Source: Eledone cirrhosa
Lineage: Eukaryota
Direction: 5' to 3'
NCBI GenBank assembly: GCA_964016885.1
Contig: OZ024757.1
Span: forward strand, 35,216,001-35,280,000
Length of the DNA: 64,000 nt
Shown here piece by piece: positions 1-64,000 of this stretch (positions are counted from its first letter, which is position 1; the number at the start of each line of letters is the position of its first letter). The notes beneath the pieces were generated by a model. That model searched no databases. It was not told the DNA's origin and saw only the letters and a list, made by a program, of their open reading frames with translations. A program made the translations under genes and the position numbers.

Positions 1-515
1 AGAGGAAGACAGAGATGAAACGAGAGAGAGAGAGCAAGATGAAACGAGAGAGAGAGATTTAACGAGAGAGAGGAAGAGAGAGATGGAACGAGAGAGAGGA
101 AGAGAGAGATGGAACGAGAGAGAGGAAGACAGAGAGCGCAAGATGAAACGAGAGAGAGAGAGAGAGAGCGAGATGAAACGAGAGAGAGGAAGAGAGAGAG
201 CGCGAGATGAAACGAGAGAGAGGAAGTGAGAGAGCGCGAGATGAAACGAGAGAGAGAGAGCGAGATGAAATGAGAGAGTGAGAGTGAGATGAAACGAGAG
301 AGAGAGAGAGAGAGCGTGATGAAATGAGAGAGAGAGAGCGAGATGAAATGAGAGAAAGAGAGTGAGATGAAATGAGAGAGTGAGAGCGAGATGAAACGAG
401 ACAGGGAGAGCGAGATGAAATGAGAGAGTGAGAGCGAGATGAAACGAGAGAGTGAGAGCGAGATGAAACGAGAGAGAGAGAGAGCGAGATGACACGAGAC
501 AGAGAGAGCGAGATG

Positions 516-551
<36 letters not shown>

Positions 552-1096
552 TGAAACGAGAGAGAGAGTGCGAAATGAAACGAGAGTGAGAGAGCGAGAT
601 GAAACGAGAGAGTGAGAGCGAGATGAAATGAGAGAGAGAGAGAACGAGATGAAATGAGAGAGAGAGAGAGCGAGATGAAATGAGACATAGAGAGATGAAA
701 CGAGAGAGAGATGAAACGAGAAAGAGAGGAAACGAGAGAGTGGAAACAAGAGTAGAGAGCGAGATGAAACAGGAGTGAGAGAGCGAGATGAAACAGGAGA
801 GAGAGAGCGAGATGAAACGAGAGGGAGCGAGAGATGAAACGAGAGAGCGAGAGAGAGATAGAGGGAAATGAAACGAGAGAGAGAGAGACAGATGAAACGA
901 GGGATATAGAGATGAAACGAGAGAGAGATATGAAACGAGAGAGAGGAAGAGAGAGATAGAACGAGAGAGAGGAAGAGAGAGATGAAACGAGAGAGAGGAA
1001 GACAGAGGTGAAACGAGAGAGAGAGAGAGCGAGATGAAACGAGAGAGAGAGCGAGATGAAACGAGAGAAAGGAAGAGAGAGAGCGCGAGATGAAAC

Positions 1097-1502
1097 TCTG
1101 TCATGGACATCTCTGCCCATGTGGCTAATAATTCTGTCATGTAATGTTATGGACAACTCTGCCCCTGTGGCTATTAATTCTGTCATGTAATGTTATGGAC
1201 ATCTCTGCCTCTGTGGCTAATAATTCTGACATGTAATGTTATGGAATCTCTGCCCCTGTGGCTAATAAATCTGTCATGTAATGTTACGGACATCTCTGCC
1301 CCTGTGGCTAATAAATCTGTCATGTAATGTTATGGACATCTCTGCCCCTGTGGCTAATAATTCTGACATGTAATGTTATGGACATCTCTGCCCCTGTGGC
1401 TAATAATTCTGACATGTAATGTTATGGACATCTGTGCCCCTGTGGCTAATAATTCTGACATGTAATGTTATGGACATCTCTGCCCCTGTGGCTAATAATT
1501 CT
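1097..1502 (+). repeat. 46-bp minisatellite array (about 9 units)
   Basis: Units start at 1136, 1182 and 1228 (period 46). The first unit carries a 10-bp deletion. Confidence 0.95.
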
Positions 1503-1571
1503 GAGAGAGATGAAACAAGTGAGGGATTAGAGAGAGATGAAACAAGTGAGGGATTAGAGTGTTGAAACAAG
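1503..1571 (+). repeat. Module cap (example): 27-bp doublet AGAGAGAGATGAAACAAGTGAGGGATT followed by AGAGTGTTGAAACAAG
   Basis: Present, as a doublet or a single copy, at the same end of every non-palindromic 46-bp array on either strand. Missing only at the orphan unit at 7168. Confidence 0.9.
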
Positions 1572-3210
1572 AGAGAGGAAGAGAGAGTGAGAGCGAGATC
1601 AAACGAGAGAGAGAGAGCGAGATGAAATGAGAGAGAGAGAGCGAGATGAAACAAGACAGAGAGAGCGGGATGAAACGAGACAGAGAGAGCGAGAGCGAGA
1701 TGAAACGAGACAGAGAGAGCGAGATGAAACGAGAGAGAGAGAGCGAGATGAAATGAGAGAGAGAGAGCGAGATGAAATGAGAGAGAGAGAGCGAGATGAA
1801 ACGAGAGAGTGAGAGCGAGATGGAACAAGAGAGAGCGAGAGAGAGCGAGATGAAATGAGAGAGAGAGAGCGAGATGAAACGAGAGAGTGAGAGCGAGATG
1901 GAACGAGAGAGAGCGAGAGAGAGCGAGATGAAATGAGAGAGAGAGAGCGAGATGAAATGAGAGAGAGAGAGCGAGATGAAACGAGACAGAGAGAGCGGGA
2001 TAAAACGAGACAGAGAGAGCGAGAGCGAGATGAAACGAGACAGAGAGAGCGAGATGAAACGAGAGAGAGAGAGCGGGATGAAACGAGAGAGTGAGAGCGA
2101 GATGGAACGAGACAGAGAGAGCGAGATGAAACGAGAGTGGGAGAGCTAGATGAAACAAGAGAGAGAGGAAACGAGAGAGAGAGGAAACGAGAGAGACGAA
2201 ACGAGAGAGAGGAAACGAGAGTAGAGAGCGAGATGAAACAGGAGAGAGAGAACGAGATGAAACAGGAGAGAGATAGCGAGATGAAACGAGAGGGAGAGAG
2301 AGATGAAACGAGAGAGCGAGAGAGAGATAGAGGGAGATGAAACGACAGAGAGAGAGACAGATGAAACGAGGGAGATAGAGATGAAACGAGAGAGAGGAAG
2401 AGAGAGATGGAACGAGAGAGAGGAAGAGAGAGATGGAACGAGAGAGAGGAAGACAGAGATGAAACGAGAGAGAGACAGAGCAAGATGAAACGAGAGAGAG
2501 AGATTAAACGAGAGAGAGGAAGAGAGAGATGGAACGAGAGAGAGGAAGAGAGAGATGGAACGAGAGAGAGGAAGACAGAGATGAAACGAGAGAGAGAGAG
2601 ATCGAGATGAAACGAGAGAGAGGAAGAGAGAGAGCGCAAGATGAAACGAGAGAGAGAGAGAGAGAGCGAGATGAAACGAGAGAGAGGAAGAGAGAGAGCG
2701 CGAGATGAAACGAGAGAGAGTAAGAGAGAGAGCGCGAGATGAAACGAGAGAGAGAGAGAACGAGATGAAATGAGAGAGAGAGAGAGCGAGATGAAATGAG
2801 ACATAGAGAGATGAAACGAGAGAGAGATGAAACGAGAAAGAGAGGAAACGAGAGAGTGGAAACAAGAGTAGAGAGCGAGATGAAACAGGAGTGAGAGAGC
2901 GAGATGATACAGGAGAGAGAGAGCGAGATGAAACGAGAGGGAGCGAGAGATGAAACGAGAGAGGGAGAGAGACATAGAGGGAAATGAAACGACAGAGAGA
3001 GAGACAGATGAAACGAGGGATATAGAGATGAAACGAGAGAGAGATATGAAACGAGAGAGAGGAAGAGAGAGATAGAACGAGAGAGAGGAAGAGAGAGATG
3101 AAACGAGAGAGAGGAAGACAGAGGTGAAACGAGAGAGAGAGAGCGGGATGAAACGAGAGAGAGAGCGAGATGAAATGAGAGAGAGGAAGAGAGAGAGCGC
3201 GAGATGAAAC

Positions 3211-3524
3211 TCTGTCATGGACATCTCTGCCCCTGTGGCTAATAATTCTGTCATGTAATGTTATGGACAACTCTGCCCCTGTGGCTAATAATTCTGTCAT
3301 GTAATGTTATGGACATCTCTGCCCCTGTGGTTAATAATTCTGACATGTAATGTTATGGAATCTCTGCCCCTGTGGCTAATAAATCTGTCATGTAATGTTA
3401 CGGACATCTCTGCCCCTGTGGCTAATAAATCTGTCATGTAATGTTATGGACATCTCTGTCCCTGTGGCTAATAATTCTGACATGTAATGTTATGGACATC
3501 TCTGCCCCTGTGGCTAATAATTCT
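3211..3524 (+). repeat. 46-bp minisatellite array (about 7 units)
   Basis: Tandem 45/46-bp units. Confidence 0.95.
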
Positions 3525-5834
3525 GAGAGAGATGAAACAAGTGAGGGATTAGAGAGAGATGAAACAAGTGAGGGATTAGAGTGTTGAAACAAGAGAGAGA
3601 GAGGAAGAGTGAGTTAGAGCGAAATCAAACGAGAGAGAGCGAGATGAAATGAGAGAGTGAGAGCGAGATGAAACGAGAGAGAGAGAGAGAGCGAGATGAA
3701 ATGAGAGAGAGAGAGCGAGATGAAATGAGAGAGAGAGAGCGAGATGAAACGAGACAGAGAGAGCGGGATGAAACGTGACAGAGAGAGCGAGAGCGAGATG
3801 AAACGAGACAGAGAGAGCGAGATGAAACGAGAGAGAGAGAGCGAGATGAAATGAGAGAGAGAGAGCGAGATGAAATGAGAGAGAGAGAGCGAGATGTAAC
3901 GAGAGAGTGAGAGCGAGATGGAACGAGACAGAGAGAGCGAGATGAAACGAGAGTGGGAGAGCTAGATGAAACGAGAGAGAGAGGAAACGAGAGAGAGAGG
4001 AAACGAGAGAGACGAAACGAGAGTAGAGAGCGAGATGAAACAGGAGAGAGAGAGCGAGATGAAACGAGAGGGAGAGAGAGATGAAACGAGAGAGCGAGAG
4101 AGAGATAGAGGGAGATGAAACGACAGAGAGAGAGACAGATGAAACGAGGGAGATAGAGATGAAACGAGAGAGAGAGATGAAACTAGAGAGAGGAAGAGAG
4201 AGATGGAACGAGAGAGAGGAAGAGAGAGATGGAACGAGAGAGAGGAAGACAGAGATGAAACGAGAGAGAGAGAGAGCAAGATGAAACGAGAGAGAGAGAT
4301 GAAACGAGAGAGAGGAAGAGAGAGATGGAACGAGAGAGAGGAAGACAGAGATGAAACGAGAGAGAGAGAGATTGAGATGAAACGAGAGAGTGAGAGCTAG
4401 ATGAAACGAGAGAGAGAGGAAACGAGAGAGAGAGGAAACGAGAGAGAGGAAACGAGAGTAGAGAGCAAGAGGAAACAGGAGAGAGGGAGAGCGAGGTGAA
4501 ACCGGAGAGAGAGAGCGAGATGAAACGAGAGGGAGGGAGAGATGAAACGAGAGAGCGAGAGAGAGATAGAGGGAGATGAAACGAGAGAGTGATAGCTAGA
4601 TGAAACGAGAGTGAGAGGAATAGAGAGATGGAACGAGAGAGAGGAAGACAGATATGAAACGAGAGAGAGAGAGAGAGCGAGATGAGACGAGAGAGAGGAA
4701 GAGAGAGAGCGCGAGATGAAATGAGAGAGAGAGAGAGCGAGATGAAACGAGAGAGAGGAAGAGAGAGAGCGCGAGATGAAAAGAGAGAGAGAGAGAGCGA
4801 GATGAAAAGAGAGAGAGGAAGAGAGAGAGCGCGAGATGAAACGAGAGAGAGAGAGCGAGATGAAATGAGAGAGTGAGGGTGAGATGAAACGAGAGAGAGA
4901 GAGAGAGATAGCGAGATGAAATGAGAGAGAGAGAGCGAGATGAAATGAGAGAGAGAGAGAGCGAGATGAAACGAGACAGAGAAAGCGGGATGAAACGAGA
5001 CAGAGAGATCGAGAGGAAATGAGAGACAGAGAGAGCGAGATGAAACGAGAGAGTGAGAGCGGGATGGAACGAGACAGAGAGAGCGAGATGAAACGAGAGA
5101 GTGAGGAAACGAGAGAGAGAGGAAACGAGACAGAGGAAACGAGAGAGAGGAAACGAGAGTAGAGAGCGAGATGAAACAGGAGAGAGAGAGACCGAGATAA
5201 AACAGGAGAGAGAGAGCGAGATGAAACGAGAGGGAGGGAGAGATGAAACGAGAGAGCGAGAGAGAGATAGTGGGAGATGAAACGACAGAGAGAGAGACAG
5301 ATGAAACGAGGGAGATAGATATGAAACGAGAGAGCGAGATGAAACGAGAGAGTGAGAGCGAGATGGAACGAGACAGAGAGAGCGAGATGAAACGAGAAAG
5401 AGAGAGCGAGATGTAATGAGAGAGAGAGTGGGATGGAACGAGACAGAGAGGAAACGAGAAAGAGAGGAAACGAGAGAGAGAGGAAACGAGAGAGAGGAAA
5501 CGAGAGTAGAGAGCGAGATGAAACAGGAGAGAGAGAGCGTGATGAAACAGGAGAGAGAGAGCGAGATGAAACGAGAGGGAGGGAGAGATGAAACGAGAGA
5601 GGGAGAGAGAGATAGAGGGAGATGAAACGACAGAGAGAGAGACAGATGAAACGAGGGAGATAGAGATGAAACGAGAGAGGAAGAGAGAGATGGAACGAGA
5701 GAGAGGAAGAGAGAGATGAAACGAGAGAGAGGAAGACAGAGATGAATAGAGAGAGAGAGAGAGCGAGATGAAACGAGAGAGAGGAAGAGAGAGAGCGCGA
5801 GATGAAACGAGAGAGAGAGAGCGCGAGATGAAAC

Positions 5835-6433
5835 TCTGTCATGTAATGTTATGGACATATCTGCCCTTGGGGCTAATAATTGTCATGTAATGTTATGGAC
5901 GTCTCTGCCCCTGTGGCTAATAATTCTGTCATGTAATGTTATGGACATCTCTGCCCCTGTGGCTAATAATTATGTCATGTAATGTTATGGACATCTCCGC
6001 CCCTGTGGCTAATAATTCTGACATGTAATGTTATGGACATCTCTGCCCCTCTGGCTAATAATTCTGACATGTAATGTTATGGACATCTCTGCCCCTGTGG
6101 CTAATAAATCAGAATTATTAGCCACAGGGGCAGAGATGTCCATAACATTACATGTCAGAATTATTAGCCACAGGGGCAGAGATGTCCATAACATTACATG
6201 TCAGAATTATTAGCCACAGGGACAGAGATGTCCATAACATTACATGACAGATTTATTAGCCACAGGGGCAGAGATGTCCATAACACTACATGTCAGAATT
6301 ATTAGCCACAGGGGCAGAGATGTCCATAACATTACATTACATAATTATTAGCCACAGGGGCAGAGATGTCCATAACATTACATGACAATTATTAGCCGCA
6401 AGGGCAGATATGTCCATAACATTACATGACAGA
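5835..6433. repeat. Palindromic 46-bp minisatellite array, inversion centre at 6111 (about 6 units +, about 7 units -)
   Basis: ...GTGGCTAATAAATC-A-GAATTATTAGCCAC... with one central base and one mismatch. The mirror ORFs 6009-6194(-) and 6028-6213(+) are symmetric about 6111. Confidence 0.95.
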
Positions 6434-7167
6434 CTTTCATCTCGCGCTCTCTCTCTCTCTCGTTTCATCTCGCGCTCTCTCTCTTCCTCTCTCTCGTTTC
6501 ATCTCGCGTTAACTCTCTTCCTCTCTCTCGTTTCATCTCGCTCTCTCTCTCTCGTTTCATCTCTGTCTTCCTCTCTCTCGTTCCATCTCTCTCTTCCTCT
6601 CTCTCGTTCCATCTCTCTCTTCCTCTCTCTCGTTTCATCTCTCTCTCTCTCTGTCGTTTCATCTCCCTCTAACTCTCTCTCGCTCTCTCGTTTCATCTCT
6701 CTCTCCCTCTCGTTTCATCTCGCTCTCTCTCTCCTGTTTCATCTCGCTCTCTCTCTCCTGTTTCATCTCGCTCTCTCTCTCCTGTTTCATCTCGCTCTCT
6801 ACTCTCGTTTCCTCTCTCTCATATCCTCTCTCTCGTTTCCTCTCTCTCTCGTTTCCTCTAGCTCTCACTCTCTCGTTTCATCTCGCTCTCTCTCTCTCAT
6901 TTCATCTCGCTCTCTCTCTCTCATTTCATCTCGCTCTCTCTGTCTCGTTTCATTTCGCTCTCTCTCTCTCTCATTTCATCTCGCTATCTCTATCTCGTTT
7001 CATCCCGCTCTCTCTGTCTCGTTTCATCTCGCTCTCTCTCTCTCATTTCATCTCGCTCTCTCTCTCTCATTTCATCTCGCTCTCTCTCTCTCGTTTCATC
7101 TCGCTCTCACTCTCTCATTTCATCTCGCTCTCTCTCTCGTTTGATCTCGCTCTCACTCTCTCTTCCT

Positions 7168-7215
7168 CAATTATTAGCCCCTAGGGCAGATATGTCCATA
7201 ACATTACTTGACAGA
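7168..7215 (-). repeat. Orphan single minisatellite unit at a deletion junction
   Basis: CAATTATTAGCCCCTAGGGCAG... is fused directly to a truncated cap. Confidence 0.9.
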
Positions 7216-8046
7216 CTTTCATCTGGCGCTCTCTCGTTTCATCTCTTCCTCTCTCTCGTTTCATCTCACTCTCTCTCTCTCTCGTTTCATCTCGCACTCT
7301 CTCTCTTCCTCTCTCTCGTTTTATCTTGCTCTCTCTCTCTCTCGTTTCATCTCTGTCTTCCTCTCTCTCGTTCCATCTCTCTCTTCCTCTCTCTCGTTTC
7401 ATCTCTCTCTCTCGTTTCATCTCTATCTCCCTCGTTTCATCTGTCTCTCTCTCTGTCGTTTCCTCTCCCTCTATCTCTCTCTCGCTCTCTCGTTTCATCT
7501 CTCTCTCCCTCTCGTTTCATCTCGCTCTCTCTCTCCTGTTTCATCTCGCTCTCTCTCTCTCCTGTTTCATCTCGCTCTCTACTCTCGTTTCCTCTCTCTC
7601 GTATCCTCTCTCTCGTTTCCTCTCTCTCTCGTTTCCTCTCTCTCTCGTTTCCTCTAGCTCTCACTCTCTCGTTTCATCTCGCTCTCTCTCTCTCATTTCA
7701 TCTCGCTCTCTCTCTCTTGTTTCATCTCGCTCTCTCTGTCTCGTTTCATTTCGCTCTCTCTCTCTCTCATTTCATCTCGCTCTCTCTGTCTCGTTTCATC
7801 CCGCTCTCTCTGTCTCGTTTCATCTCGCTCTCTCTCTCTCATTTCATCTCGCTCTCTCTCTCTCATTTCATCTCGCTCTCTCTCTCTCTCGTTTCATCTC
7901 GCTCTCACTCTCTCATTTCATCTCGCTCTCTCTCTCTCTCGTTTGATCTCGCTCTCACTCTCTCTTCCTCTTTCTCTCTTGTTTCAACACTTTAATCCCT
8001 CACTTGTTTCATCTCTCTCTAATCCCTCACTTGTTTCATCTCTCTC

Positions 8047-8415
8047 AGAATTATTAGCCACAGGGGCAGAGATGTCCATAACTTTACATGTCAGAATTAT
8101 TAGCCACAGGGGCAGAGATGTCCATAACATTACATGTCAGAATTATTAGCCACAGGGGCAGAGATGTCCATAACATTACATGACAGATTTATTAGCCACA
8201 GGGGCAGAGATGCCCATAACATTACATGACGAATTTATTAGCCACAGGGGCAGAGATGTCCATAATATTACATGACAGAATTATTAGCCACAGGGGCAGA
8301 GATGGCCATAACATTACATGACAGAATTATTAGCCACAGGGACAGAGATGTCCATAACATTACATGACAATTATTAGCCCCTAGGGCAGATATGTCCATA
8401 ACATTACTTGACAGA
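8047..8415 (-). repeat. 46-bp minisatellite array (about 8 units)
   Basis: Tandem reverse-complement units. Confidence 0.95.
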
Positions 8416-9242
8416 CTTTCATCTGGCGCTCTCTCGTTTCATCTCTTCCTCTCTCTCGTTTCATCTCACTCTCTCTCTCTCTCGTTTCATCTCGCACTCT
8501 CTCTCTTCCTCTCTCTCGTTTTATCTTGCTCTCTCTCTCTCTCGTTTCATCTCTGTCTTCCTCTCTCTCGTTCCATCTCTCTCTTCCTCTCTCTCGTTTC
8601 ATCTCTCTCTCTCGTTTCATCTCTATCTCCCTCGTTTCATCTGTCTCTCTCTCTGTCGTTTCCTCTCCCTCTATCTCTCTCTCGCTCTCTCGTTTCATCT
8701 CTCTCTCCCTCTCGTTTCATCTCGCTCTCTCTCTCCTGTTTCATCTCGCTCTCTCTCTCTCTCCTGTTTCATCTCGCTCTCTACTCTCGTTTCCTCTCTC
8801 TCGTATCCTCTCTCTCGTTTCCTCTCTCTCTCGTTTCCTCTCTCTCTCGTTTCCTCTAGCTCTCACTCTCTCGTTTCATCTCGCTCTCTCTCTCTCATTT
8901 CATCTCGCTCTCTCTCTCTCGTTTCATCTCGCTCTCTCTGTCTCGTTTCATTTCGCTCTCTCTCTCTCTCATTTCATCTCGCTCTCTCTGTCTCGTTTCA
9001 TCCCGCTCTCTCTGTCTCGTTTCATCTCGCTCTCTCTCTCTCATTTCATCTCGCTCTCTCTCTCTCATTTCATCTCGCTCTCTCTCTCTCGTTTCATCTC
9101 GCTCTCACTCTCTCATTTCATCTCGCTCTCTCTCTCGTTTGATCTCGCTCTCACTCTCTCTTCCTCTCTCTCTCTTGTTTCAACACTCTAATCCCTCACT
9201 TGTTTCATCTCTCTCTTATCCCTCACTTGTTTCATCTCTCTC

Positions 9243-9519
9243 AGAATTATTAGCCACAGGGGCAGAGATGTCCATAACATTACATGTCAGAATTATTAGC
9301 CACAGGGGCAGAGATGTCCATAACATTACATGACAGATTTATTAGCCACAGAGGCAGAGATGTCCATAACATTACATGACGAATTTATTAGCCACAGGGG
9401 CAGAGATGTCCATAACATTACATGACAGAATTATTAGCCACAGGGGCAGAGATGTCCATAACATTACATGACAATTATTAGCCCCAAGGGCAGATATGTC
9501 CATAACATTACATGACAGA
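9243..9519 (-). repeat. 46-bp minisatellite array (about 6 units)
   Basis: Tandem reverse-complement units. Confidence 0.95.
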
Positions 9520-10170
9520 CTTACATCTCACGCTCTCTCTCTCTCGTTTCATCTCGCGTTCTCTCTCTTCCTCTCTCTCGTTTCATCTCGCTCTCTCTCT
9601 CTCGTTTCATCTCACGCTCTCTCTCTTCTTCTCTCTCCTTTCATCTCGCTCTCTCTCTCTCTCGTTTCAACTTTGTCTTCCTCTCTCTCGTTTCATCTCT
9701 CTCTTCCTCTCTCTCTCGTTCCATCTCTCTCTCGTTTCATCTCGCTCTCTCTGTCTCGTTCCATCTCGCTCTCTCTCTCTCGTTTCATCTCTATCTCCCT
9801 CGTTTCATCTGTCTCTCTCTCTGTCGTTTCATCTCCCTCTATCTCTCTCTCGCTCTCTCGTTTCATCTCTACCTCCCTCTCGTTTCATCTCGCTCTCTCA
9901 CTCCTGTTTCATCTCGCTCTCTCTCTCCTGTTTAATCTCGCTCTCTACTCTCGTTCCATCTCTCTCTCATTTCATCTCACTCTCTCTCTCTCATTTCATC
10001 TCGCTTTCTCTCTCTCGTTTCATCTCGCTCTCACTCTCTCATTTCATCTCGCTCTCTCTCTCTCGTTTGATCTCGCTCTCACTCTCTCTTCCTCTCTCTC
10101 TCTTGTTTCAACACTTTAATCCCTCACTTGTTTCATCTCTCTCTAATCCCTCACTTGTTTCATCTCTCTC

Positions 10171-10495
10171 AGAATTATTAGCCACAGGGGCAGAGATGTC
10201 CATAACGTTACATGTCAGAATTATTAGCCACAGGGGCAGAGATGTCCATAACATTACATGTCAGAATTATTAGCCACAGGGGCAGAGATGTCCATAACAC
10301 TACATGACAGATTTATTAGCCACAGGGGCAGAGATGTCCATAACATTACATGACGGATTTATTAGCCACAGGGGCAGAGATGTCCATAACATTACATGAC
10401 AGAATTATTAGCCACAGGGGCAGAGATGGCCATAACATTACATGACAGAATTATTAGCCACAGGGGCAGATATGTCCATAACATTACATGACAGA
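10171..10495 (-). repeat. 46-bp minisatellite array (about 7 units)
   Basis: Tandem reverse-complement units. Confidence 0.95.
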
Positions 10496-11159
10496 CTTTC
10501 ATCTCGCGCTCTCTCGTTTCATCTCGCTCTCTCTCTCTTCCTCTCTCTCGTTTCATCTCACTCTCTCTCTTTCTCGTTTCATCTCGCACTCTCTCTCTTC
10601 CTCTCTCTCGTTTTATCTTGCTCTCTCTCTCGTTTCATCTCTGTCTTCCTCTCTCTCGTTCCATCTCTCTCTTCCTCTCTCTCGTTTCATCTCTCTCTCT
10701 CGTTTCAACTCTATCTCCCTCGTTTCATCTGTCTCTCTCTCTGTCGTTTCATCTCCCTCTATCTCTCTCTCGCTCTCTCGTTTCATCTCTCTCTCCCTCT
10801 CGTTTCATCTCGCTCTCTCTCTCCTGTTTCATCTCGCTCTCTACTCTCGTTTCCTCTCTCTCGTATCCTCTCTCTCGTTTCCTCTCTCTCTCGTTTCCTC
10901 TCTCTCTCGTTTCCTCTAGCTCTCTCTGTCTCGTTTCATCCCGCTCTCTCTGTCTCGTTTCATCTCGCTCTCTCTCTCTCATTTCATCTCGCTCTCTCTC
11001 TCTCATTTCATCTCGCTCTCTCTCTCTCGTTTCATCTCGCTCTCACTCTCTCATTTCATCTCGCTCTCTCTCTCTCTCTCGTTTGATCTCGCTCTCACTC
11101 TCTTTTCCTCTCTCTCTCTTGTTTCAACACTCTAATCCCTCACTTGTTTCATCTCTCTC

Positions 11160-11528
11160 AGAATTATTAGCCACAGGGGCAGAGATGTCCATAACATTAC
11201 ATGTCAGAATTATTAGCCACAGGGGCAGAGATGTCCATAACATTACATGACAGTTTTATTAGCCACAGGGGCAGAGATGTCCATAACATTACATGACGAA
11301 TTTATTAGCCACAGGGGCAGAGATGTCCATAACATTACATGACAGAATTATTAGCCACAGGGGCAGAGATGTCCATAACATTACATGACATAATTATTAG
11401 CCACAGGGGCAGAGATGTCCATAACATTACATGACAGAATTATTAGCCACAGGGGCAGATATGTCCATAACATTACATGACAATTATTAGCCCCAAGGGC
11501 AGATATGTCCATAACATTACATGACAGA
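11160..11528 (-). repeat. 46-bp minisatellite array (about 8 units)
   Basis: Tandem reverse-complement units. Confidence 0.95.
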
Positions 11529-13430: not shown

Positions 13431-13456
13431 TATATATATATATATATATATATATA
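13431..13456. repeat. (TA)13 microsatellite ending the Helitron homology
   Basis: Read directly from the sequence. Confidence 0.95.
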
Positions 13457-13947: not shown

Positions 13948-13979
13948 GATGGTGGTTTCTCTATGATGGTGGTTTCTCT
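13948..13979 (+). repeat. 15-bp direct duplication GATGGTGGTTTCTCT (also in islands 2 and 3)
   Basis: Two copies at 13948-13962 and 13965-13979. Confidence 0.9.
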
Positions 13980-13992
13980 TTGAACTAATAAT

Positions 13993-14160: not shown

Positions 14161-14164
14161 CAGT

Positions 14165-14585: not shown

Positions 14586-14622
<37 letters not shown>

Positions 14623-20459: not shown

Positions 20460-20507
<48 letters not shown>

Positions 20508-51271: not shown

Positions 51272-51585
51272 TCTGTCATGGACATCTCTGCCCCTGTGGC
51301 TAATAATTCTGTCATGTAATGTTATGGACAACTCTGCCCCTGTGGCTAATAATTCTGTCATGTAATGTTATGGACATCTCTGCCCCTGTGGCTAATAATT
51401 CTGACATGTAATGTTATGGAATCTCTGCCCCTGTGGCTAATAAATCTGTCATGTAATGTTACGGACATCTCTGCCCCTGTGGCTAATAAATCTGTCATGT
51501 AATGTTATGGACATCTCTGTCCCTGTGGCTAATAATTCTGACATGTAATGTTATGGACATCTCTGCCCCTGTGGCTAATAATTCT
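51272..51585 (+). repeat. 46-bp minisatellite array (about 7 units)
   Basis: Tandem units. Confidence 0.95.
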
Positions 51586-53796: not shown

Positions 53797-53835
<39 letters not shown>

Positions 53836-53901
53836 TGAAACGAGAGAGAGGAAGAGAGAGAGCGCGAGATGAAACGAGAGAGAGAGAGCGCGAGATGAAA
53901 C

Positions 53902-54730
53902 TCTGTCATGTAATGTTATGGACATATCTGCCCTTGGGGCTAATAATTGTCATGTAATGTTATGGACGTCTCTGCCCCTGTGGCTAATAATTCTGTCATG
54001 TAATGTTATGGACATCTCTGCCCCTGTGGCTAATAATTATGTCATGTAATGTTATGGACATCTCCGCCCCTGTGGCTAATAATTCTGACATGTAATGTTA
54101 TGGACATCTCTGCCCCTCTGGCTAATAATTCTGACATGTAATGTTATGGACATCTCTGCCCCTGTGGCTAATAAATCAGAATTATTAGCCACAGGGGCAG
54201 AGATGTCCATAACATTACATGTCAGAATTATTAGCCACAGGGGCAGAGATGTCCATAACATTACATGTCAGAATTATTAGCCACAGGGGCAGAGATGTCC
54301 ATAACATTACATGTCAGAATTATTAGCCAGAGGGGCAGAGATGTCCATAACATTACATGTCAGAATTATTAGCCACAGGGGCAGAGATGTCCATAACATT
54401 ACATGTCAGAATTATTAGCCACAGGGGCAGAGATGTCCATAACATTACATGTCAGAATTATTAGCCAGAGGGGCAGAGATGTCCATAACATTACATGTCA
54501 GAATTATTAGCCACAGGGGCAGAGATGTCCATAACATTACATGACAGATTTATTAGCCACAGGGGCAGAGATGTCCATAACACTACATGTCGGAATTATT
54601 AGCCACAGGGGCAGAGATGTCCATAACATTACATTACATAATTATTAGCCACAGGGGCAGAGATGTCCATAACATTACATGACAATTATTAGCCGCAAGG
54701 GCAGATATGTCCATAACATTACATGACAGA
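53902..54730. repeat. Palindromic 46-bp minisatellite array, inversion centre at 54178 (about 6 + 12 units)
   Basis: Identical centre sequence. Mirror ORFs at 54076-54261 and 54095-54280. Confidence 0.95.
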
Positions 54731-55554
54731 CTTTCATCTCGCGCTCTCTCTCTCTCTCGTTTCATCTCGCGCTCTCTCTCTTCCTCTCTCTCGTTTCACC
54801 TCGCTCTCTCTCTCTCGTTTCATCTCGCGTTAACTCTCTTCCTCTCTCTCGTTTCATCTCGCTCTCTCTCTCTCGTTTCATCTCTGTCTTCCTCTCTCTC
54901 GTTCCATCTCTCTCTTCCTCTCTCTCGTTTCATCTCTCTCTCTCGTTTCATCTCTATCTCCCTCGTTTCATCTGTCTCTCTCTCTGTCGTTTCATCTCCC
55001 TCTAACTCTCTCTCGCTCTCTCGTTTCATCTCTCTCTCCCTCTCGTTTCATCTCGCTCTCTCTCTCCTGTTTCATCTCGCTCTCTCTCTCCTGTTTCATC
55101 TCGCTCTCTCTCTCCTGTTTCATCTCGCTCTCTACTCTCGTTTCCTCTCTCTCATATCCTCTCTCTCGTTTCCTCTCTCTCTCGTTTCCTCTAGCTCTCA
55201 CTCTCTCGTTTCATCTCGCTCTCTCTCTCTCATTTCATCTCGCTCTCTCTCTCTCATTTCATCTCGCTCTCTCTGTCTCGTTTCATTTCGCTCTCTCTCT
55301 CTCTCATTTCATCTCGCTATCTCTATCTCGTTTCATCCCGCTCTCTCTGTCTCGTTTCATCTCGCTCTCTCTCTCTCATTTCATCTCGCTCTCTCTCTCT
55401 CATTTCATCTCGCTCTCTCTCTCTCTCGTTTCATCTCGCTCTCACTCTCTCATTTCATCTCGCTCTCTCTCTCTCGTTTGATCTCGCTCTCACTCTATCT
55501 TCCTCTCTCTCTCTTGTTTCAACACTCTAATCCCTCACTTGTTTCATCTCTCTC

Positions 55555-55875
55555 AGATTTATTAGCCACAGGGGCAGAGATGTCCATAACATTACATGAC
55601 GAATTTATTAGCCACAGGGGCAGAGATGTCCATAACATTACATGACAGAATTATTAGCCACAGGGGCAGAGATGTCCATAACATTACATGACATAATTAT
55701 TAGCCACAGGGGCAGAGATGTCCATAACATTACATGACAGAATTATTAGCCAGAGGGGCAGAGATGTACATAACATTACATGACAATTATTAGCCCCAAG
55801 GGCAGATATGTCCATAACATTACATGACAATTATTAGCCCCAAGGGCAGATATGTCCATAACATTACATGACAGA
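55555..55875 (-). repeat. 46-bp minisatellite array (about 7 units)
   Basis: Tandem reverse-complement units. Confidence 0.95.
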
Positions 55876-57295
55876 CTTTCATCTCGCGCTCCCTCTCTCT
55901 CGTTTCATCTCGCCCTCTCTCTCTTCCTCTCTCTCGTTTCATCTCGCTCTCTCTCTCTCTCGTTTCATCTCGCGCTCTCTCTCTTCCTCTCTCTCGTTTC
56001 ATCTCGCTCTCTCTCTCTCTCGTTTCATCTTTGTCTTCCTCTCTCTCGTTCCATTTCTCTCTTCCTCTCTCTCTCGTTCCATCTCTCTCTCGTTTCATCT
56101 AGCTCTCACTCTCTCGTTTCATCTCGCTCTCTCGTTTCATCTCTATCTCCCTCGTTTCATCTGTCTCCCTCTCTGTCGTTTCATCTCCCTCTATCTCTCT
56201 CTCGCTCTCTCGTTTCATCTCTCCCTCCCTCTCATTTCATCTCGCTCTCTCACTCCTGTTTCATCTCGCTCTCTCTCTCCTGTTTCATCTCGCTCTCTAC
56301 TCTCGTTCTATCTCTCTCTCGTTTCATCTAGCTCACACTCTCTCGTTTCATCTCGCTCTCTCTGTCTCGTTCCATCTCGCTCTTTCTGTCTCGTTTCATC
56401 TCGCTCTCTCTCTCTCATTTCATCTCGCTCTCTCTCTCTCATTTCATCTCGCTCACTCTCTCTCTCTCGTTTCATCTCACTCTCACTCTCTCATTTCATC
56501 TCGCTCTCTCTCTCTCTCTCGTTTCATCTCACGCTCTCTCTCTTCCTCTCTCTCGTTTCATCTCGCTCTCTCTCTCTCTCTTGTTTCATCACGCGCTCTC
56601 TCTCTGCCTCTCTCTCTTTTCATCTCTCTCTCTCTCTCTCTCGTTTCATCTCTGTCTTCCTCTCTCTCGTTCCATCTCTCTCTTCCTCTCTCTCGTTCCA
56701 TCTCGCTCTTCCTCTCTCTCGTTTCATCTCTCTCTCTCGTTTCATCTGTCTCTCTCTCTGTCGTTTCATCTCCCTCTATCTCTCTCTCGCTCTCTCGTTT
56801 CATCTCTCTCTCCCTCTCGTTTCATCTCGCTCTCTCTCTCCTGTTTCATCTCGCTCTCTCTCTCTCCTGTTTCATCTCGCTCTCTACTCTCGTTTCCTCT
56901 CTCTCGTTTCCTCTCTCTCTCGTTTCATGTAGCTCTCATTCTCTCGTTTCATCTCGCTCTCTCTCTCTCATTTCATCTCGCTCTCTCTCTCTCTCGTTTC
57001 ATCTCGCTCTCTCTGTCTCGTTTCATCTCGCTCTCTCTGTCTCTCATTTCATCTCGCTCTCTCTGTCTCGTTTCATGTCGCTCTCTCTCTCTCATTTCAT
57101 CTCACTCTCTCTCTCTCATTTCATCTCGCCCTCTCTCTCTCGTTTCATCTCGGTCCCACTCTCTCATTTCATCTCGCTCTCTCTCTCTCGTTTGATCTCG
57201 CTCTCACTCTCTCTTCCTCTTTCTCTCTTGTTTCAACACTTTAATCCCTCACTTGTTTCATCTCTCTCTAATCCCTCACTTGTTTCATCTCTCTC

Positions 57296-57664
57296 AGAAT
57301 TATTAGCCACAGGGGCAGAGATGTCCATAACTTTACATGTCAGAATTATTAGCCACAGGGGCAGAGATGTCCATAACATTACATGTCAGAATTATTAGCC
57401 ACAGGGGCAGAGATGTCCATAACATTACATGACAGATTTATTAGCCACAGGGGCAGAGATGTCCATAACATTACATGACGAATTTATTAGCCACAGGGGC
57501 AGAGATGTCCATAATATTACATGACAGAATTATTAGCCACAGGGGCAGAGATGGCCATAACATTACATGACAGAATTATTAGCCACAGGGGCAGAGATGT
57601 CCATAACATTACATGACAATTATTAGCCCCTAGGGCAGATATGTCCATAACATTACTTGACAGA
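57296..57664 (-). repeat. 46-bp minisatellite array (about 8 units)
   Basis: Tandem reverse-complement units. Confidence 0.95.
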
Positions 57665-58441
57665 CTTTCATCTGGCGCTCTCTCGTTTCATCTCTTCCTC
57701 TCTCTCGTTTCATCTCACTCTCTCTCTCTCTCGTTTCACCTCGCACTCTCTCTCTTCCTCTCTCTCGTTTTATCTTGCCCTCTCTCTCTCTCGTTTCATC
57801 TCTGTCTTCCTCTCTCTCGTTCCAACTCTCTCTTCCTCTCTCTCGTTTCATCTCTCTCTCTCGTTTCATCTCTATCTCCCTCGTTTCATCTGTCTCTCTC
57901 TCTGTCGTTTCGTCTCCCTCTATCTCTCTCTCGCTCTCTCGTTTCATCCCTCTCTCCCTCTCGTTTCATCTCGCTCTCTCTCTCCTGTTTCATCTCGCTC
58001 TCTCTCTCTCCTGTTTCATCTCGCTCTCTACTCTCGTTTCCTCTCTCTCGTATCCTCTCTCTCGTTTCCTCTCTCTCTCGTTTCCTCTCTCTCTCGTTTC
58101 CTCTAGCTCTCACTCTCTCGTTTCATCTCGCTCTCTCTCTCTCATTTCATCTCGCTCTCTCTCTCTCGTTTCATCTCGCTCTCTCTGTCTCGTTTCATTT
58201 CGCTCTCTCTCTCTCTCATTTCATCTCGCTCTCTCTGTCTCGTTTCATCCCGCTCTCTCTGTCTCGTTTCATCTCGCTCTCTCTCTCTCATTTCATCTCG
58301 CTCTCTCTCTCTCATTTCATCTCGCTCTCTCTCTCGTTTGATCTCGCTCTCACTCTCTCTTCCTCTCTCTCTCTTGTTTCAACACTCTAATCCCTCACTT
58401 GTTTCATCTCTCTCTTATCCCTCACTTGTTTCATCTCTCTC

Positions 58442-58716
58442 AGAATTATTAGCCACAGGGGCAGAGATGTCCATAACATTACATGACAGAATTATTAGCC
58501 ACAGGGGCAGAGATGTCCATAACATTACATGACATAATTATTAGCCACAGGGGCAGAGATGTCCATAACATTACATGACAGAATTATTAGCCACAGGGGC
58601 AGAGATGTACATAACATTACATGACAATTATTAGCCCCAAGGGCAGATATGTCCATAACATTACATGACAATTATTAGCCCCAAGGGCAGATATGTCCAT
58701 AACATTACATGACAGA
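58442..58716 (-). repeat. 46-bp minisatellite array (about 6 units)
   Basis: Tandem reverse-complement units. Confidence 0.95.
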
Positions 58717-60114
58717 CTTTCATCTCGCGCTCTCGCTCTCTCGTTTCATCTCGCCCTCTCTCTCTTCCTCTCTCTCGTTTCATCTCGCTCTCTCTCTCTC
58801 TCGTTTCATCTCGCGCTCTCTCTTTTCCTCTCTCTCGTTTCATCTCGCTCTCTCTCTCTCTCTCGTTTCATCTTTGTCTTCCTCTCTCTCGTTCCATTTC
58901 TCTCTTCCTCTCTCTCTCGTTCCATCTCTCTCTCGTTTCATCTCGCTCTCTCACTCCTGTTTCATCTCGCTCTCTCTCTCCTGTTTCATCTCGCTCTCTA
59001 CTCTCGTTCCATCTCTCTCTCGTTTCATCTAGCTCACACTCTCTCGTTTCATCTCGCTCTCTCTGTCTCGTTCCATCTCGCTCTCACTCTCTCGTTTCAT
59101 CTCGCTCTCTCTGTCTCTCATTTCATCTCGATCTCTCTGTCTCGTTTCATCCCGCTCTTTCTGTCTCTTTTCATCTCGCTCTCTCTCTCTCATTTCATCT
59201 CGCTCTCTCTCTCTCGTTTCATCTCTCTTTCACTCTATCATTTCACCTCGCGCTCTCTCTCTCTCGTTTCATCTCGCGCTCTCTCTCTCTTCCTCTCTCT
59301 CGTTTCATCTCGCTCTCTCTCTCTCTCTCGTTTCATCACGCGCTCTCTCTCTTCCTCTCTCTCGTTTCATCTCGATCTCTCTCTCTGTCGTTTCATCTCT
59401 GTCTTCCTCTCTCTCGTTCCATCTCTCTCTTCCTCTCTCTCGTTCCATCTCTCTCTTCCTCTCTCTCTTTTCATCTCTCTCTCTCGTTTCATCTCTATCT
59501 CCCTCGTTTCATCTGTCTCTCTCTCTGTCGTTTCATCTCCCTCTATCTCTCTCTCGCTCTCTCGTTTCATCTCTCTCTCCCTCTCGTTTCATCTCGCACT
59601 CTCTCTCCTGTTTCATCTCGCTCTCTCTCTCTCCTGTTTCATCTCGCTCTCTACTCTCGTTTCCTCTCTCTCGTTTCCTCTCTCTCGTTTCCTCTCTCTC
59701 TCGTTTCCTCTCTCTCTCGTTTCATGTAGCTCTCACTCTCTCGTTTCATCTCGCTCTCTCTCTCTCATTTTATCTCGCTCTCTCTCTCTCATTTCATCTC
59801 GCTGTCTCTGTCTCGTTTCGTCTCGCTCTCTCTGTCTCTCATTTCATCTCGCTCTCTCTGTCTCGTTTCATCCCGCTCTCTCTGTCTCGTTTCCTCTCGC
59901 TCTCTCTCTCTCATTTCATCTCACTCTCTCTCTCTCATTTCATCTCGCTCTCTCTCTCTCGTTTCATCTCGCTCTCACTCTCTCATTTCATCTCGCTCTC
60001 TCTCTCTCGTTTGATCTCGCTCTCACTCTCTCTTCCTCTCTCTCTCTTGTTTCAACACTTTAATCCCTCACTTGTTTCATCTCTCTCTAATCCCTCACTT
60101 GTTTCATCTCTCTC

Positions 60115-60439
60115 AGAATTATTAGCCACAGGGGCAGAGATGTCCATAACGTTACATGTCAGAATTATTAGCCACAGGGGCAGAGATGTCCATAACATTA
60201 CATGTCAGAATTATTAGCCACAGGGGCAGAGATGTCCATAACATTACATGACAGATTTATTAGCCACAGGGGCAGAGATGTCCATAACATTACATGACGA
60301 ATTTATTAGCCACAGGGGCAGAGATGTCCATAACATTACATGACAGAATTATTAGCCACAGGGGCAGAGATGGCCATAACATTACATGACAGAATTATTA
60401 GCCACAGGGGCAGATATGTCCATAACATTACATGACAGA
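60115..60439 (-). repeat. 46-bp minisatellite array (about 7 units)
   Basis: Tandem reverse-complement units. Confidence 0.95.
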
Positions 60440-61103
60440 CTTTCATCTCGCGCTCTCTCGTTTCATCTCGCTCTCTCTCTCTCTTCCTCTCTCTCGTTTC
60501 ATCTCACTCTCTCTCTTTCTCGTTTCATCTCGCACTCTCTCTCTTCCTCTCTCTCGTTTTATCTTGCTCTCTCTCTCTCTCGTTTCATCTCTGTCTTCCT
60601 CTCTCTCGTTCCATCTCTCTCTTCCTCTCTCTCGTTTCATCTCTCTCTCTCGTTTCAACTCTATCTCCCTCGTTTCATCTGTCTCTCTCTCTGTCGTTTC
60701 ATCTCCCTCTATCTCTCTCTCGCTCTCTCGTTTCATCTCTCTCTCCCTCTCGTTTCATCTCGCTCTCTCTCTCCTGTTTCATCTCGCTCTCTACTCTCGT
60801 TTCCTCTCTCTCGTATCCTCTCTCTCGTTTCCTCTCTCTCTCGTTTCCTCTCTCTCTCGTTTCCTCTAGCTCTCTCTGTCTCGTTTCATCCCGCTCTCTC
60901 TGTCTCGTTTCATCTCGCTCTCTCTCTCTCATTTCATCTCGCTCTCTCTCTCTCATTTCATCTCGCTCTCTCTCTCTCGTTTCATCTCGCTCTCACTCTC
61001 TCATTTCATCTCGCTCTCTCTCTCTCTCGTTTGATCTTGCTCTCACTCTCTTTTCCTCTCTCTTGTTTCAACACTCTAATCCCTCACTTGTTTCATCTCT
61101 CTC

Positions 61104-61472
61104 AGAATTATTAGCCACAGGGGCAGAGATGTCCATAACATTACATGTCAGAATTATTAGCCACAGGGGCAGAGATGTCCATAACATTACATGACAGTTT
61201 TATTAGCCACAGGGGCAGAGATGTCCATAACATTACATGACGAATTTATTAGCCACAGGGGCAGAGATGTCCATAACATTACATGACAGAATTATTAGCC
61301 ACAGGGGCAGAGATGTCCATAACATTACATGACATAATTATTAGCCACAGGGGCAGAGATGTCCATAACATTACATGACAGAATTATTAGCCACAGGGGC
61401 AGATATGTGCATAACATTACATGACAATTATTAGCCCCAAGGGCAGATATGTCCATAACATTACATGACAGA
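61104..61472 (-). repeat. 46-bp minisatellite array (about 8 units)
   Basis: Tandem reverse-complement units. Confidence 0.95.
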
Positions 61473-62610
61473 CTTACATCTCACGCTCTCTCTCTCTCGT
61501 TTCATCTCGCGCTCTCTCTCTTCCTCTCTCTCGTTTCATCTCGCTCTCTCTCTCTCTCTCTCTTGTTTCATCTCGCGCTCTCTCTCTTCTTCTCTCTCGT
61601 TTCATCTCGCTCTCTCTCTCTCTCGTTTCAACTTTGTCTTCCTCTCTCTCGTTCCATCTCTCTCTTCCTCTCTCTCTCGTTCCCTCTCTCTCTCGTTTCA
61701 TCTAGCTCTCACTCTCTCGTTTCATCTCGCTCTCTCTGTCTCGTTCCATCTCGCTCTCTCTCTCTCGTTTCATCTCTATCTCCCTCGTTTCATCTGTCAC
61801 TCTCTCTGTCATTTCATCTCCCTCTATCTCTCTCTCGCTCTCCCGTTTCATCTCTACCAGCCTCTCGTTTCATCTCGCTCTCTCACTCCTGTTTCATCTC
61901 ACTCTCTCTCTCCTGTTTAATCTCGCTCTCTACTCTCGTTCCATCTCTCTCTCGTTTCATCTAGCTCTCACTCTCTCGTTTCATCTCGCTCTCTCTGTCT
62001 CTCATTTCATCTCGATCTCTCTGTCTCGTTTCATCCCGCTCTCTCTCTCTCGTTTCATCTCACTCTCACTCTCTCATTTCATCTCGCTCTCTCTCTCTCG
62101 TTTCATCTCGCGCTCTCTCTCTTCCTCTCTCTCGTTTCATCTCGCTCTCTCTCTCTCTCTCGTTTCATCACGCGTACTCTCTCTTCCTCTCTCTCGTTTC
62201 ATCTCTCTCTCTCGTTTCATCTCTATCTCCCTCGTTTCATCTCTCTCTCTCTCTGTCGTTTCATCTCCCTCTATCTCTCTCTCGCTCTCTCGTTTCCTCT
62301 CTCTCTCCCTCTCGTTTCAACTCGCTCTCTCTCTCCTGTATCATCTCGCTCTCTCTCTCTCCTGTTTCATCTCGCTCTCTACTCTCGTTTCCTCTCTCTC
62401 GTTTCCTCTCTCTCGTTTCCTCTCTCTCTCGTTTCCTCTCTCTCTCGTTTCATTTAGCTCTCACTCTCTCGTTTTATCTCGCTCTCTCTCTCTCATTTCA
62501 TCTCGCTCTCTCTCTCTCGTTTCCATAGAAAAGGTAAAGAAAAGAAGAATGCTCTATGTATTGTACAGAGCTATTTAATTACATAATAAACAACAGAATA
62601 TAATTATTCC

Positions 62611-63378
62611 ATGCAAATAGACTTAGAATGGAAAACATTCAGACAGAGAAGAATGGATAATGAGCGTCGTAAGAGAAATTGGCCAACAATTAATATTAAT
62701 GGAAATGTAGAAGAATTTCATATTAGTGATATGAATGTTTCGTGTGATCACTGTGGAGCTTTGAAATTTAGAAATGAAAATTGTAACTGTTGTAATAAAG
62801 GAAAGGTTGTGTTGCCACCATTGCAAATATACCCTGAGAGACTGAGAAATCTCTTTGAAAGAGGCCAGGAAGCAGTTGATTTCACAGAAACATCTGCAAT
62901 TAAAACTACATTTATTTCACTTCATTTGGTGTTACCACCCGGCAGAGGCCCGTATAGCTTTCATATTCAGAGTCAAACATATCACTACACCCCCATCTCT
63001 GTAACCTGCAGAAAATACACCACAATATGGCCAGTTATATATTATTGATGGGAACGAAGGTATGTAGCACAGATTGGAAGTACAACCAAATAATTGTTTC
63101 TGGCACAAGGCCAGCAATTACTGGTACTTTATTCTATCGACCTCATAAGGATGAAAACAAAGTCAACCTTGGAGGGATTTGAACCCAGAACGTAAATGGC
63201 CATAACCCTATGCTGTAAAGCGTGGTGTCTGGCGCTCTACCGATACTGCCAATCCACTGCCCTAGTACCAACAAATAATGACTGCTCACCACAAAAAATG
63301 GCTATGATAAGAGAAGTGTTGCATGAATGTAATCCATATGTCGAAGTGTACAATACAATGCATGGCATCACAAATGAA
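62611..63378 (+). pseudogene. Decayed Helitron RepHel N-terminal fragment, copy 3
   Basis: Near-identical to 12663-13430 with the same lesions. Confidence 0.85.
63095..63263 (-). mobile_element. tRNA-derived SINE, copy in island 3
   Basis: Same as 13147-13315 except A>G at 63222. Confidence 0.85.
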
Positions 63379-63402
63379 TATATATATATATATATATATA
63401 TA
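63379..63402. repeat. (TA)12 microsatellite
   Basis: Read directly from the sequence. Confidence 0.95.
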
Positions 63403-63938
63403 CTACTAAAGTGTATGTAAAATTTTAAAATAAATACTTAAATTCAATTTGTATAATTACACATACAATATGTTTTGTTGTAAAACCCTAAATAATGATT
63501 TAAGAAATGATGTCAATCTCTTTGTACAGAGAAAAACAATTTATATATATGCATTGTGTGCGCGTGTATACTCCATTTAAGACAGTGAAAAACCTAGTAC
63601 CTCCTTCAAAGAATGCCAAATAGTTTATGCCTAAGGTGTAACACTAATTAAGTTACCGGTGTAGATATTTCAGTTGAACCCTGCTTCAAACATGCATATT
63701 ATTATTATATATTTTCAAACACACTTACATACATTATATTTATACACATAGAAATAATAAGTTAAAACTAAAGTATAATGATATAACAACAGTATATAAT
63801 AGTTTTCTTCACTTTATTGAGATGCAATCGTTTTAAAGAAAAAACATGACAGTATAAGAAATATTTAATATGAGAACATAATATTTCAGGTAGGATGGTG
63901 GTTTCTCTATGATGGTGGTTTCTCTTTGAACTAATAAT

Positions 63939-64000
63939 TGTTTCTATTTTAGGCACAAGGTCAGTAATTAACCAGTACATTACTGGTACTTTATTTTATC
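63939..64000 (-). mobile_element. Second SINE, copy in island 3 (cut by window end)
   Basis: Same as the start of 13993-14160. Confidence 0.75.

What the first reader, a model, noticed from the sequence alone, without database searches (positions are those of the whole stretch)
1..64000. Multi-level, strand-switching macrosatellite (22-27 kb unit) built around a Helitron remnant
Seen: repetition nests from the GA dinucleotide, to a punctuated word of about 20 bp, to an ordered sub-block of about 0.6 kb, to a 1-2.7 kb module (cap + GA tract + 46-bp array), to 6-17 kb arms, to a 22.6/27.4 kb unit. Orientation flips twice per unit, once at a spacerless palindrome and once across a unique island of about 1.8 kb. 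The result is a tandem chain of giant imperfect inverted repeats. Inference: this may be an undescribed structural domain (centromeric, heterochromatic or subtelomeric) or a self-amplifying element. I do not recognise it as a named satellite family.
Basis: partly seen in the sequence, partly recalled or inferred. Interest (0 to 1): 0.75.

Follow-up and report, generated by a model that had tools for sequence, protein, structure and literature searches.

The report
Mirror-arm macrosatellite from a dead transposon
In what is probably an octopus genome, a block of junk DNA around a dead jumping gene carries repeat arms that face each other like giant mirrors, but the arms are not copies of each other, so the mirrors most likely come from old copying errors that were later multiplied head-to-tail, with no sign yet of a function.

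Summary
The architecture is real. The window holds three hairpin centres (7-base loop), three 1.8-kb islands, arms of 6.5-17 kb and units of 22.6 and 27.4 kb.

It is one local form of a composite macrosatellite family of about 3 Mb, found on four or five chromosomes of a cephalopod genome. The family is built on a dead Helitron carrying an inserted GA/46-bp piece. The centre junction has 66 exact copies (C18, C20, C25, one small contig). The island junction has only 10, all on C18.

The facing arms are separate lineages: they share 22% of 41-mers, against 60-62% between same-direction arms. Two-copy 61-mers in the window are 4,594 direct and 16 inverted. So fixed inversion junctions were most likely multiplied by direct tandem duplication, not by hairpin replication or arm-to-arm conversion. 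Simpler forms (no arm, one-way arm, small inversion) survive elsewhere in the genome.

The closest published case is the Tribolium "macro-dyad" satellite. This one is not on all chromosomes, and it offers a neutral explanation for conserved inversion sites. A centromeric role is untested, and no reads were laid.

The parts
1..6109 (+). Plus arm ('P' lineage), end of a 13.6-kb arm that begins upstream of the window; modules of cap + GA-word tract + 46-bp array
6099..6123 (.). Centre 1: tail-to-tail 46-mer junction, 7-nt loop, 2-bp microhomology
6110..12571 (-). Minus arm ('M' lineage), 5 modules
12566..12586 (+). Island junction J2 (inverted GA tract joined to the Helitron relic at a 4-bp microhomology); 10 exact copies in the genome, all on C18
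12572..13422 (+). Island 1, left part: fragment of a dead Helitron RepHel gene (matches aa 148-340), frameshifted and interrupted
13141..13309 (+). About 170-bp interspersed insertion splitting the RepHel match; a diverged second copy lies at about 13987-14157 (the label 'octopus SINE' is recalled, from no call)
13423..14356 (+). Island 1, right part ('X'): AT-rich non-coding piece, the start of the X + GA + 46-mer segment inserted into the Helitron relic
14357..25415 (+). Plus arm, 6 modules, 11.1 kb
25407..25431 (.). Centre 2 (identical junction)
25423..35166 (-). Minus arm, 7 modules, 9.7 kb
35167..36947 (+). Island 2 (4 substitutions from island 1)
36948..54174 (+). Plus arm, 8 modules, 17.2 kb; includes a 14-monomer 46-bp array at 48395-49012
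54166..54190 (.). Centre 3 (identical junction)
54182..62519 (-). Minus arm, 6 modules, 8.3 kb
62520..64000 (+). Island 3, cut by the window end (continues about 300 bp)

Best explanation
This is a recently expanded composite macrosatellite whose inverted layout likely comes from a few one-off copying errors that were later multiplied as an ordinary head-to-tail array, probably without a function of its own. Steps: (1) shown: a dead Helitron sits in 8-13 kb blocks that are tandemly repeated elsewhere without arms. (2) Shown junctions, inferred event: a piece made of X + GA tract + 46-mer was inserted into the relic, with a 3-bp target-like duplication in the simplest copies, and its cap/GA/46-mer module multiplied into one-way arms. 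(3) Shown junctions, inferred mechanism: microhomology template switches in the 46-mer inverted part of an arm; one such junction is the centre. (4) Shown to be C18-only: a second junction, J2, joined an inverted GA tract to the relic and made a self-contained unit of island, plus arm, centre and minus arm. (5) Inferred: unequal exchange or break-induced replication copied that unit in direct tandem, changed module and monomer counts, and then duplicated 150-200 kb blocks. Crossovers between facing arms are rare.
For: Arms: 41-mer sharing is 0.60 plus-plus (55 pairs), 0.62 minus-minus (45 pairs) and 0.22 plus-minus (110 pairs); across a centre it is 0.21 (7) and across an island 0.22 (10). Two-copy 61-mers in the window are 4,594 direct and 16 inverted; in 435 kb, 17,523 and 901. 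The nearest relative is on the same strand for 20 of 22 window modules and 121 of 132 in all. Neighbouring centres have the same orientation in 56 of 61 pairs. Of 32 strand-switch sites found in arms, 24 are the centre type and 8 are five other types; read from the printed junctions, each has 2-4 bp of microhomology. The centre and one partner junction bound a 4-monomer inverted tract at C18:34.938 Mb and a 15-module tract at C25:26.56 Mb. Armless and one-way forms occur on C23, C18:15 Mb, C18:25 Mb, C1 and C25:14.7 Mb. J2 has 10 copies, J1 35, the centre 66 and the Helitron-X junction 99. The 10 J2 islands differ by 4.6 substitutions per kb on average (45 pairs).
Against: The order of events is inferred from surviving forms, without a rooted tree. 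Near-perfect hairpins of about 130 bp with a 7-nt loop persist in 66 copies, although long interrupted palindromes are reported to be unstable (10.1101/2023.09.19.558550); this could point to selection or protection by chromatin. The family has spread between chromosomes, which plain unequal exchange does not explain. The window's first plus arm shares 42-44% of 41-mers with minus-type terminal arms, and one unit at C18:35.72 Mb is flipped, so facing arms do recombine at times. No read data were laid, and the C18 arrays hold two 200-N gaps outside the window.
Confidence: 0.7

Rival explanations
1. The arrays are chromosome-specific (peri)centromeric or heterochromatic domains, and the dyad centres are kept because they form hairpins or cruciforms, as proposed for Tribolium macro-dyads.
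For: Identical centres occur on three chromosomes and one small contig. The hairpin is predicted to be very stable. On C25 two oppositely oriented halves flank a region holding an 80-bp satellite that has no match on C1-C24. The arms have no CpG depletion (o/e 1.1-1.3).
Against: The family covers about 0.1% of the assembly, on four or five chromosomes. Centre flanks differ by a median of 1 base in 185 (0.5%), about the same as the islands (0.46%), so no extra conservation is seen. Arm lengths across a centre are not positively correlated (rho -0.71, n=7, p=0.07). Flanks hold minisatellites and 84-bp repeats that look like zinc-finger exons.
Confidence: 0.13
2. The unit is a self-amplifying element: either a non-autonomous Helitron copied by rolling circle, or a foldback transposon (arm-island-arm) laid in tandem.
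For: A Helitron remnant is in every unit. The family has spread to several chromosomes. A lone 2.7-copy 46-mer lies at C7. A review describes tandem arrays of truncated Helitrons (PMC12628747, passages).
Against: The unit holds only RepHel aa 148-340. Arm-to-relic junctions fall at seven or more different relic positions between about 3970 and 5800, so there is no fixed end. All 10 J2 copies lie inside the C18 arrays, with no solo copy. The arms are not mirror copies.
Confidence: 0.09
3. The chain was built by repeated hairpin replication, ODIRA cycles or breakage-fusion-bridge, or is kept by arm-to-arm gene conversion as in Y-chromosome palindromes.
For: The centres are interrupted palindromes. 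One minor junction falls on the monomer's own short inverted repeat, as in ODIRA (PMC10766183, passages).
Against: Repeated fold-back would give alternating islands and mirror arms. The window's three islands all read +, 9 of 10 J2 islands are +, and recent duplicates are direct by 4,594 to 16. Such a switch may explain the first inversion, but not the amplification.
Confidence: 0.04
4. The strand switches or the unit count are assembly artefacts (fold-back chimeric reads, or over-expanded repeats).
For: The region is highly repetitive and has two scaffold gaps nearby. No reads were laid.
Against: Chimeric fold-backs would give mirror arms at random sites. Here one junction recurs 66 times on four contigs between non-mirror arms, and the units differ in module counts and substitutions. 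The window has no N.
Confidence: 0.04

Closest known systems
Tribolium satellite macro-dyad symmetries (TmSat1/TmSat2; PMC13081366: abstract, outline, passages and all of section 7 read; supplements not read)
   Same: [quoted passage not shown]
   Different: There the two satellites make up 38% of the genome and lie on all chromosomes, and the transitions hold no foreign DNA. Here the family is about 0.1%, on four or five chromosomes, one switch crosses a Helitron-derived island, and the arms are shown to be separate lineages copied in direct tandem. That paper says macro-dyads were documented only in Tribolium.
Composite satellites from 'TE graveyards' and Helitron/Helentron-linked arrays in bivalves (PMC12628747, passages read; PMC8268682 and PMC7492417, search listing only)
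   Same: The monomer is stitched from decayed transposon pieces and short tandem arrays around a Helitron, in a mollusc.
   Different: Here the unit is a 20-40 kb macrosatellite with inverted arms. The arrays lie in an insertion within a dead RepHel gene, not between intact Helentron ends.
ODIRA and DUP-TRP/INV-DUP inverted copy-number variants (PMC10766183, passages; 10.1101/2023.09.19.558550, part 1 of 4)
   Same: Inversion junctions at 2-14 bp repeats by template switching; paired junctions bounding an inverted segment.
   Different: Those are single somatic or de novo events with identical mirror arms. Here the junctions are fixed, amplified and flanked by diverged arms. No replication origin is known.
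Drosophila FB foldback elements (recalled; search found 0 papers)
   Same: Long inverted arms made of short tandem repeats around a central loop.
   Different: No solo copies, no target duplication around the unit, and arms that are not mirror copies.

Membership tests
Macro-dyad satellite (Tribolium type) | Multi-kb subarrays in opposite orientation | tested here: met
   Arms of 6.5-17 kb
Macro-dyad satellite (Tribolium type) | [quoted passage not shown] | tested here: met
   66 exact centres, 35 J1, 10 J2
Macro-dyad satellite (Tribolium type) | Dominant satellite on all chromosomes | tested here: not met
   99 of 99 Helitron-X junctions on C1, C18, C20, C25; among C1-C17 the 46-mer matches only C1 and C7
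Macro-dyad satellite (Tribolium type) | Putative (peri)centromeric position | not testable with these tools
   No CENP-A, FISH or methylation data
Helitron (autonomous) | RepHel homology | tested here: met
   E 1.9e-30, 54% to P0001, which carries PF14214 and PF05970; the fragment itself has 0 Pfam hits
Helitron (autonomous) | Intact Rep and helicase reading frame | tested here: not met
   Only aa 148-340, in three pieces, in the window; the longer relic L011 also has gaps
Non-autonomous Helitron tandem array | Units begin and end at fixed Helitron termini | tested here: not met
   Seven or more different re-entry positions; the relic's own termini were not mapped
Foldback (FB-type) transposon | Near-identical inverted arms | tested here: not met
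   0.22 sharing across the island against 0.60 between direct arms
Foldback (FB-type) transposon | Dispersed solo copies with target duplications | tested here: not met
   All 10 J2 copies lie in the C18 arrays
ODIRA-type amplicon | Junction at a short pre-existing inverted repeat or microhomology | tested here: inconclusive
   2-4 bp microhomology at six junction types; only one clearly on a monomer-internal inverted repeat
ODIRA-type amplicon | Replication origin inside the amplicon | not testable with these tools
   No origin data
Y-type palindrome with arm-to-arm conversion | Arms more alike within a palindrome than between units | tested here: not met

The most novel reading that the evidence does not exclude
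These arrays are young, chromosome-specific (peri)centromeric domains of an octopod, in which a periodic hairpin centre every 20-40 kb is kept because it extrudes and organises chromatin. That would make macro-dyad architecture a convergent centromere feature of beetles and cephalopods, caught here with its whole build history.
Probability: 0.12. Interest if true: 0.85.

Novelty: new variant of a known kind. Interest (0 to 1): 0.48.

Why it matters
Periodic macro-dyad satellites were reported only for Tribolium (PMC13081366), where conserved inversion sites were read as a hint of function. This case extends the pattern to a cephalopod and keeps its intermediates. It shows that identical inversion sites can follow from single origin plus direct tandem copying, and it gives a simple test (arm lineages, direct versus inverted low-copy k-mers) that can be run on the beetle data. 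It also gives probes for octopod centromere mapping, on which my searches found no paper, and a natural case of about 130-bp hairpins persisting in dozens of copies.

Tried and rejected
Pfam scan of the 152-aa fragment: 0 families. Rfam gathering scan of 5 loci (43.6 kb), to test a ribozyme or retrozyme origin: 0 matches. Coding repeat: the 95 stop-free frames of 200 aa or more lie on the pyrimidine-rich strand of the GA tracts, where stops are scarce, so I rejected this. Naming the taxon through an RTE fragment: 9 hits, none named. A hemocyanin search places the genome among molluscs, with best single-unit scores to 4yd9_C (503 bits) and 1js8_A (498) against 369 for 8tnv_A; that these are squid, octopus and gastropod entries is recalled. 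Octopus rather than squid rests on a recalled SINE and on AI notes. Sequencing runs: 4 of 15 listed runs (2 studies, 2 organism labels) hold half or more of the relic's words, and one may be the source sample; none was laid, so they say nothing on the architecture; no RNA holder listed. The 80-bp satellite between the C25 halves as a shared centromere repeat: no match on C1-C24 (1,506 matches, first 100 listed). A 24-of-29 likeness between the 46-mer and a motif in a neighbouring fold-back element was seen by eye and not tested statistically. Literature: searches found no paper on octopus satellites or centromeres. PMC13282606 (part 1 of 3 and a term search) has no 'satellite' or 'centromer' at word start. 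The two other papers with 'macro-dyad' that I opened only cite it. Dfam and Repbase were not available. Supplements, including the repeat library of PMC13282606, were not read and could hold parts of this repeat.
Full report
1. Observation. The window is G000:C18:35,216,001-35,280,000 in a 3.0-Gb assembly and has no N. Purine skew reverses six times. There are 34 arrays of a 46-bp monomer, each on one strand, mostly followed by a 27-bp x2 cap and a GA-word tract. Words have a median length of 24 bp and come in an ordered phrase of about 0.6-0.8 kb that recurs one to three times per tract (31 tracts). Three centres (6107, 25415, 54174) share one junction with a 7-nt loop; the fold is -163 kcal/mol and 0 of 100 shuffles match it. 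Three islands start near 12576, 35171 and 62524; islands 1 and 2 differ at 4 of 1,781 positions.

2. The island. Its left 850 bp match the N-terminal part of a RepHel protein (P0001; E 1.9e-30; 54% over 126 aa). Only aa 148-340 are present, in three pieces, split by an insertion of about 170 bp. A longer relic without arms (L011, C18:15 Mb) reaches aa 1498 with gaps. The right 930 bp ('X') are foreign to the relic. In the simplest copies X + GA + 46-mer sits in the relic between two copies of a 3-bp word (7 such right-hand junctions).

3. The family. A 26-mer of the relic has 248 exact copies; the first 100 listed are on C1, C18, C20 and C23, and C25 appears. Sampling 20 stretches showed armless blocks in direct arrays of 8.2 and 8.6 kb (C23), one-module and one-way-arm forms (C18:25 Mb, C25:14.7 Mb, C1), and 2.7-kb sub-repeats. 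All 99 Helitron-X junction matches are on C1 (1), C18 (23), C20 (13) and C25 (62). The centre has 66 exact copies: C18 16, C20 13, C25 35, C644 2. On C20 and C25 the inverted arm returns to the relic mostly by junction J1 (35 copies) in units of about 30-40 kb. The window's junction J2 has 10 copies, all on C18. I mapped C18:34.895-35.33 and 35.63-35.84 Mb in full and sampled the rest. The window's unit forms runs of three to six islands inside minus-strand relic blocks; two islands have variant junctions. My rough sum of the spans is about 3 Mb, or 0.1% of the assembly.

4. Are the arms mirrors? No. Sharing of 41-mers is 0.60 among plus arms (55 pairs), 0.62 among minus arms (45) and 0.22 between them (110); it is 0.21 across a centre (7) and 0.22 across an island (10). 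Within 5 kb of a centre, the left arm finds 2-61% of its 41-mers in its own right arm and 17-95% in another unit's left arm. Two-copy 61-mers are 4,594 direct and 16 inverted in the window, and low-copy offsets peak near 150 and 200 kb. The nearest module is on the same strand in 20 of 22 window cases and 121 of 132 overall; the two window exceptions point to the flipped unit at 35.73 Mb. Neighbouring centres keep their orientation in 56 of 61 pairs. Against this reading: the window's first plus arm is partly mixed with minus-type modules, and one unit is flipped, so inversion crossovers do occur.

5. Junctions. Of 32 strand-switch sites found within arms, 24 are the centre and 8 belong to five other types. 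Read from the printed junctions, each has 2-4 bp of microhomology; one lies on the monomer's own short inverted repeat. J2 shares 4 bp between the GA word and the relic. The centre and one partner junction bound a 4-monomer inverted tract on C18 and a 15-module tract on C25, which suggests they are the two ends of one original inversion (inference). Arms rejoin the relic at seven or more positions, so the unit has no fixed transposon end.

6. Mechanism. Most likely (0.7): insertion into a dead Helitron inside an existing tandem block, then module expansion, an inversion by microhomology template switch, a C18-only junction that closed the short unit, and direct tandem copying. The junctions, copy numbers and lineages are shown. 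The order and the repair pathways are inferred. The centre flanks (median 1 mismatch in 185 bp among 16 C18 copies) are no better conserved than the islands (4.6 per kb), so descent alone can explain their identity. Rivals are a chromosome-specific centromeric role (0.13), a self-amplifying element (0.09), repeated hairpin amplification or conversion (0.04) and misassembly (0.04). No reads were laid, so misassembly is judged only from the assembly itself.

7. Taxon. Hemocyanin genes match molluscan hemocyanins, best at single-unit level to 4yd9_C and 1js8_A (the organisms of these entries are recalled as squid and octopus). 'Octopod' rests on a recalled SINE and on unchecked scan notes.

8. 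Comparison. The closest case is the Tribolium macro-dyad satellite (PMC13081366; abstract, passages and section 7 read), which states that such arrays were documented only in that genus. This array works like it in layout but fails the test of being a dominant satellite on all chromosomes. The composite monomer fits the 'TE graveyard' idea (PMC12628747, passages). The junctions resemble ODIRA-type switches (PMC10766183, passages; 10.1101/2023.09.19.558550, part 1 of 4). Searches showed no description of this repeat or of such arrays in cephalopods; the library lacks most subscription papers, and supplements and repeat databases were not seen. The scan's notes held nothing near this place or like this sequence.

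9. Verdict. The structure is real and unusually well ordered, and is a new variant of a known kind. It is probably neutral. It is useful as a worked history of how macro-dyads arise and as a probe set for octopod centromeres. Interest 0.48.

Noticed in passing
L117 1-10000 (G000:C25:28.30 Mb; array starts near 28.14 Mb): A pure 80-bp satellite (1,506 exact 28-mer matches, none on C1-C24) lies between the two oppositely oriented halves of the C25 array; a candidate chromosome-specific centromere.
   Followed up: partly
L019 1270-2960; L011 1323-2800: A fold-back element of 1.5-1.7 kb with a 6-bp target-like duplication lies in the ancestral block; it holds a motif like the 46-mer at 24 of 29 positions, by eye.
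   Followed up: partly
L091-L092 (G000:C7:42172773-42172885): A lone 2.7-copy 46-mer inside a SINE-like fragment, far from any array; donor or stray insertion.
   Followed up: partly
L084, L085, L119, L124: 84-bp repeats that look like C2H2 zinc-finger exons flank the C18 and C25 arrays.
   Followed up: no
L012-L014, L022-L025: Other minisatellites (55, 61, 89, 34 and 120 bp) expand inside the same ancestral block, and a 2.7-kb sub-repeat of relic plus 89-mer forms its own arrays.
   Followed up: no
G000:C18:35703758-35740923 (L072-L076): One unit with a flipped island and centre marks an inversion crossover between facing arms.
   Followed up: yes
L111-L114 (G000:C26 21.9-22.0 Mb; C1 173.7-173.9 Mb): Multi-unit hemocyanin genes: an inverted pair on C26 and three direct copies on C1.
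   Followed up: no
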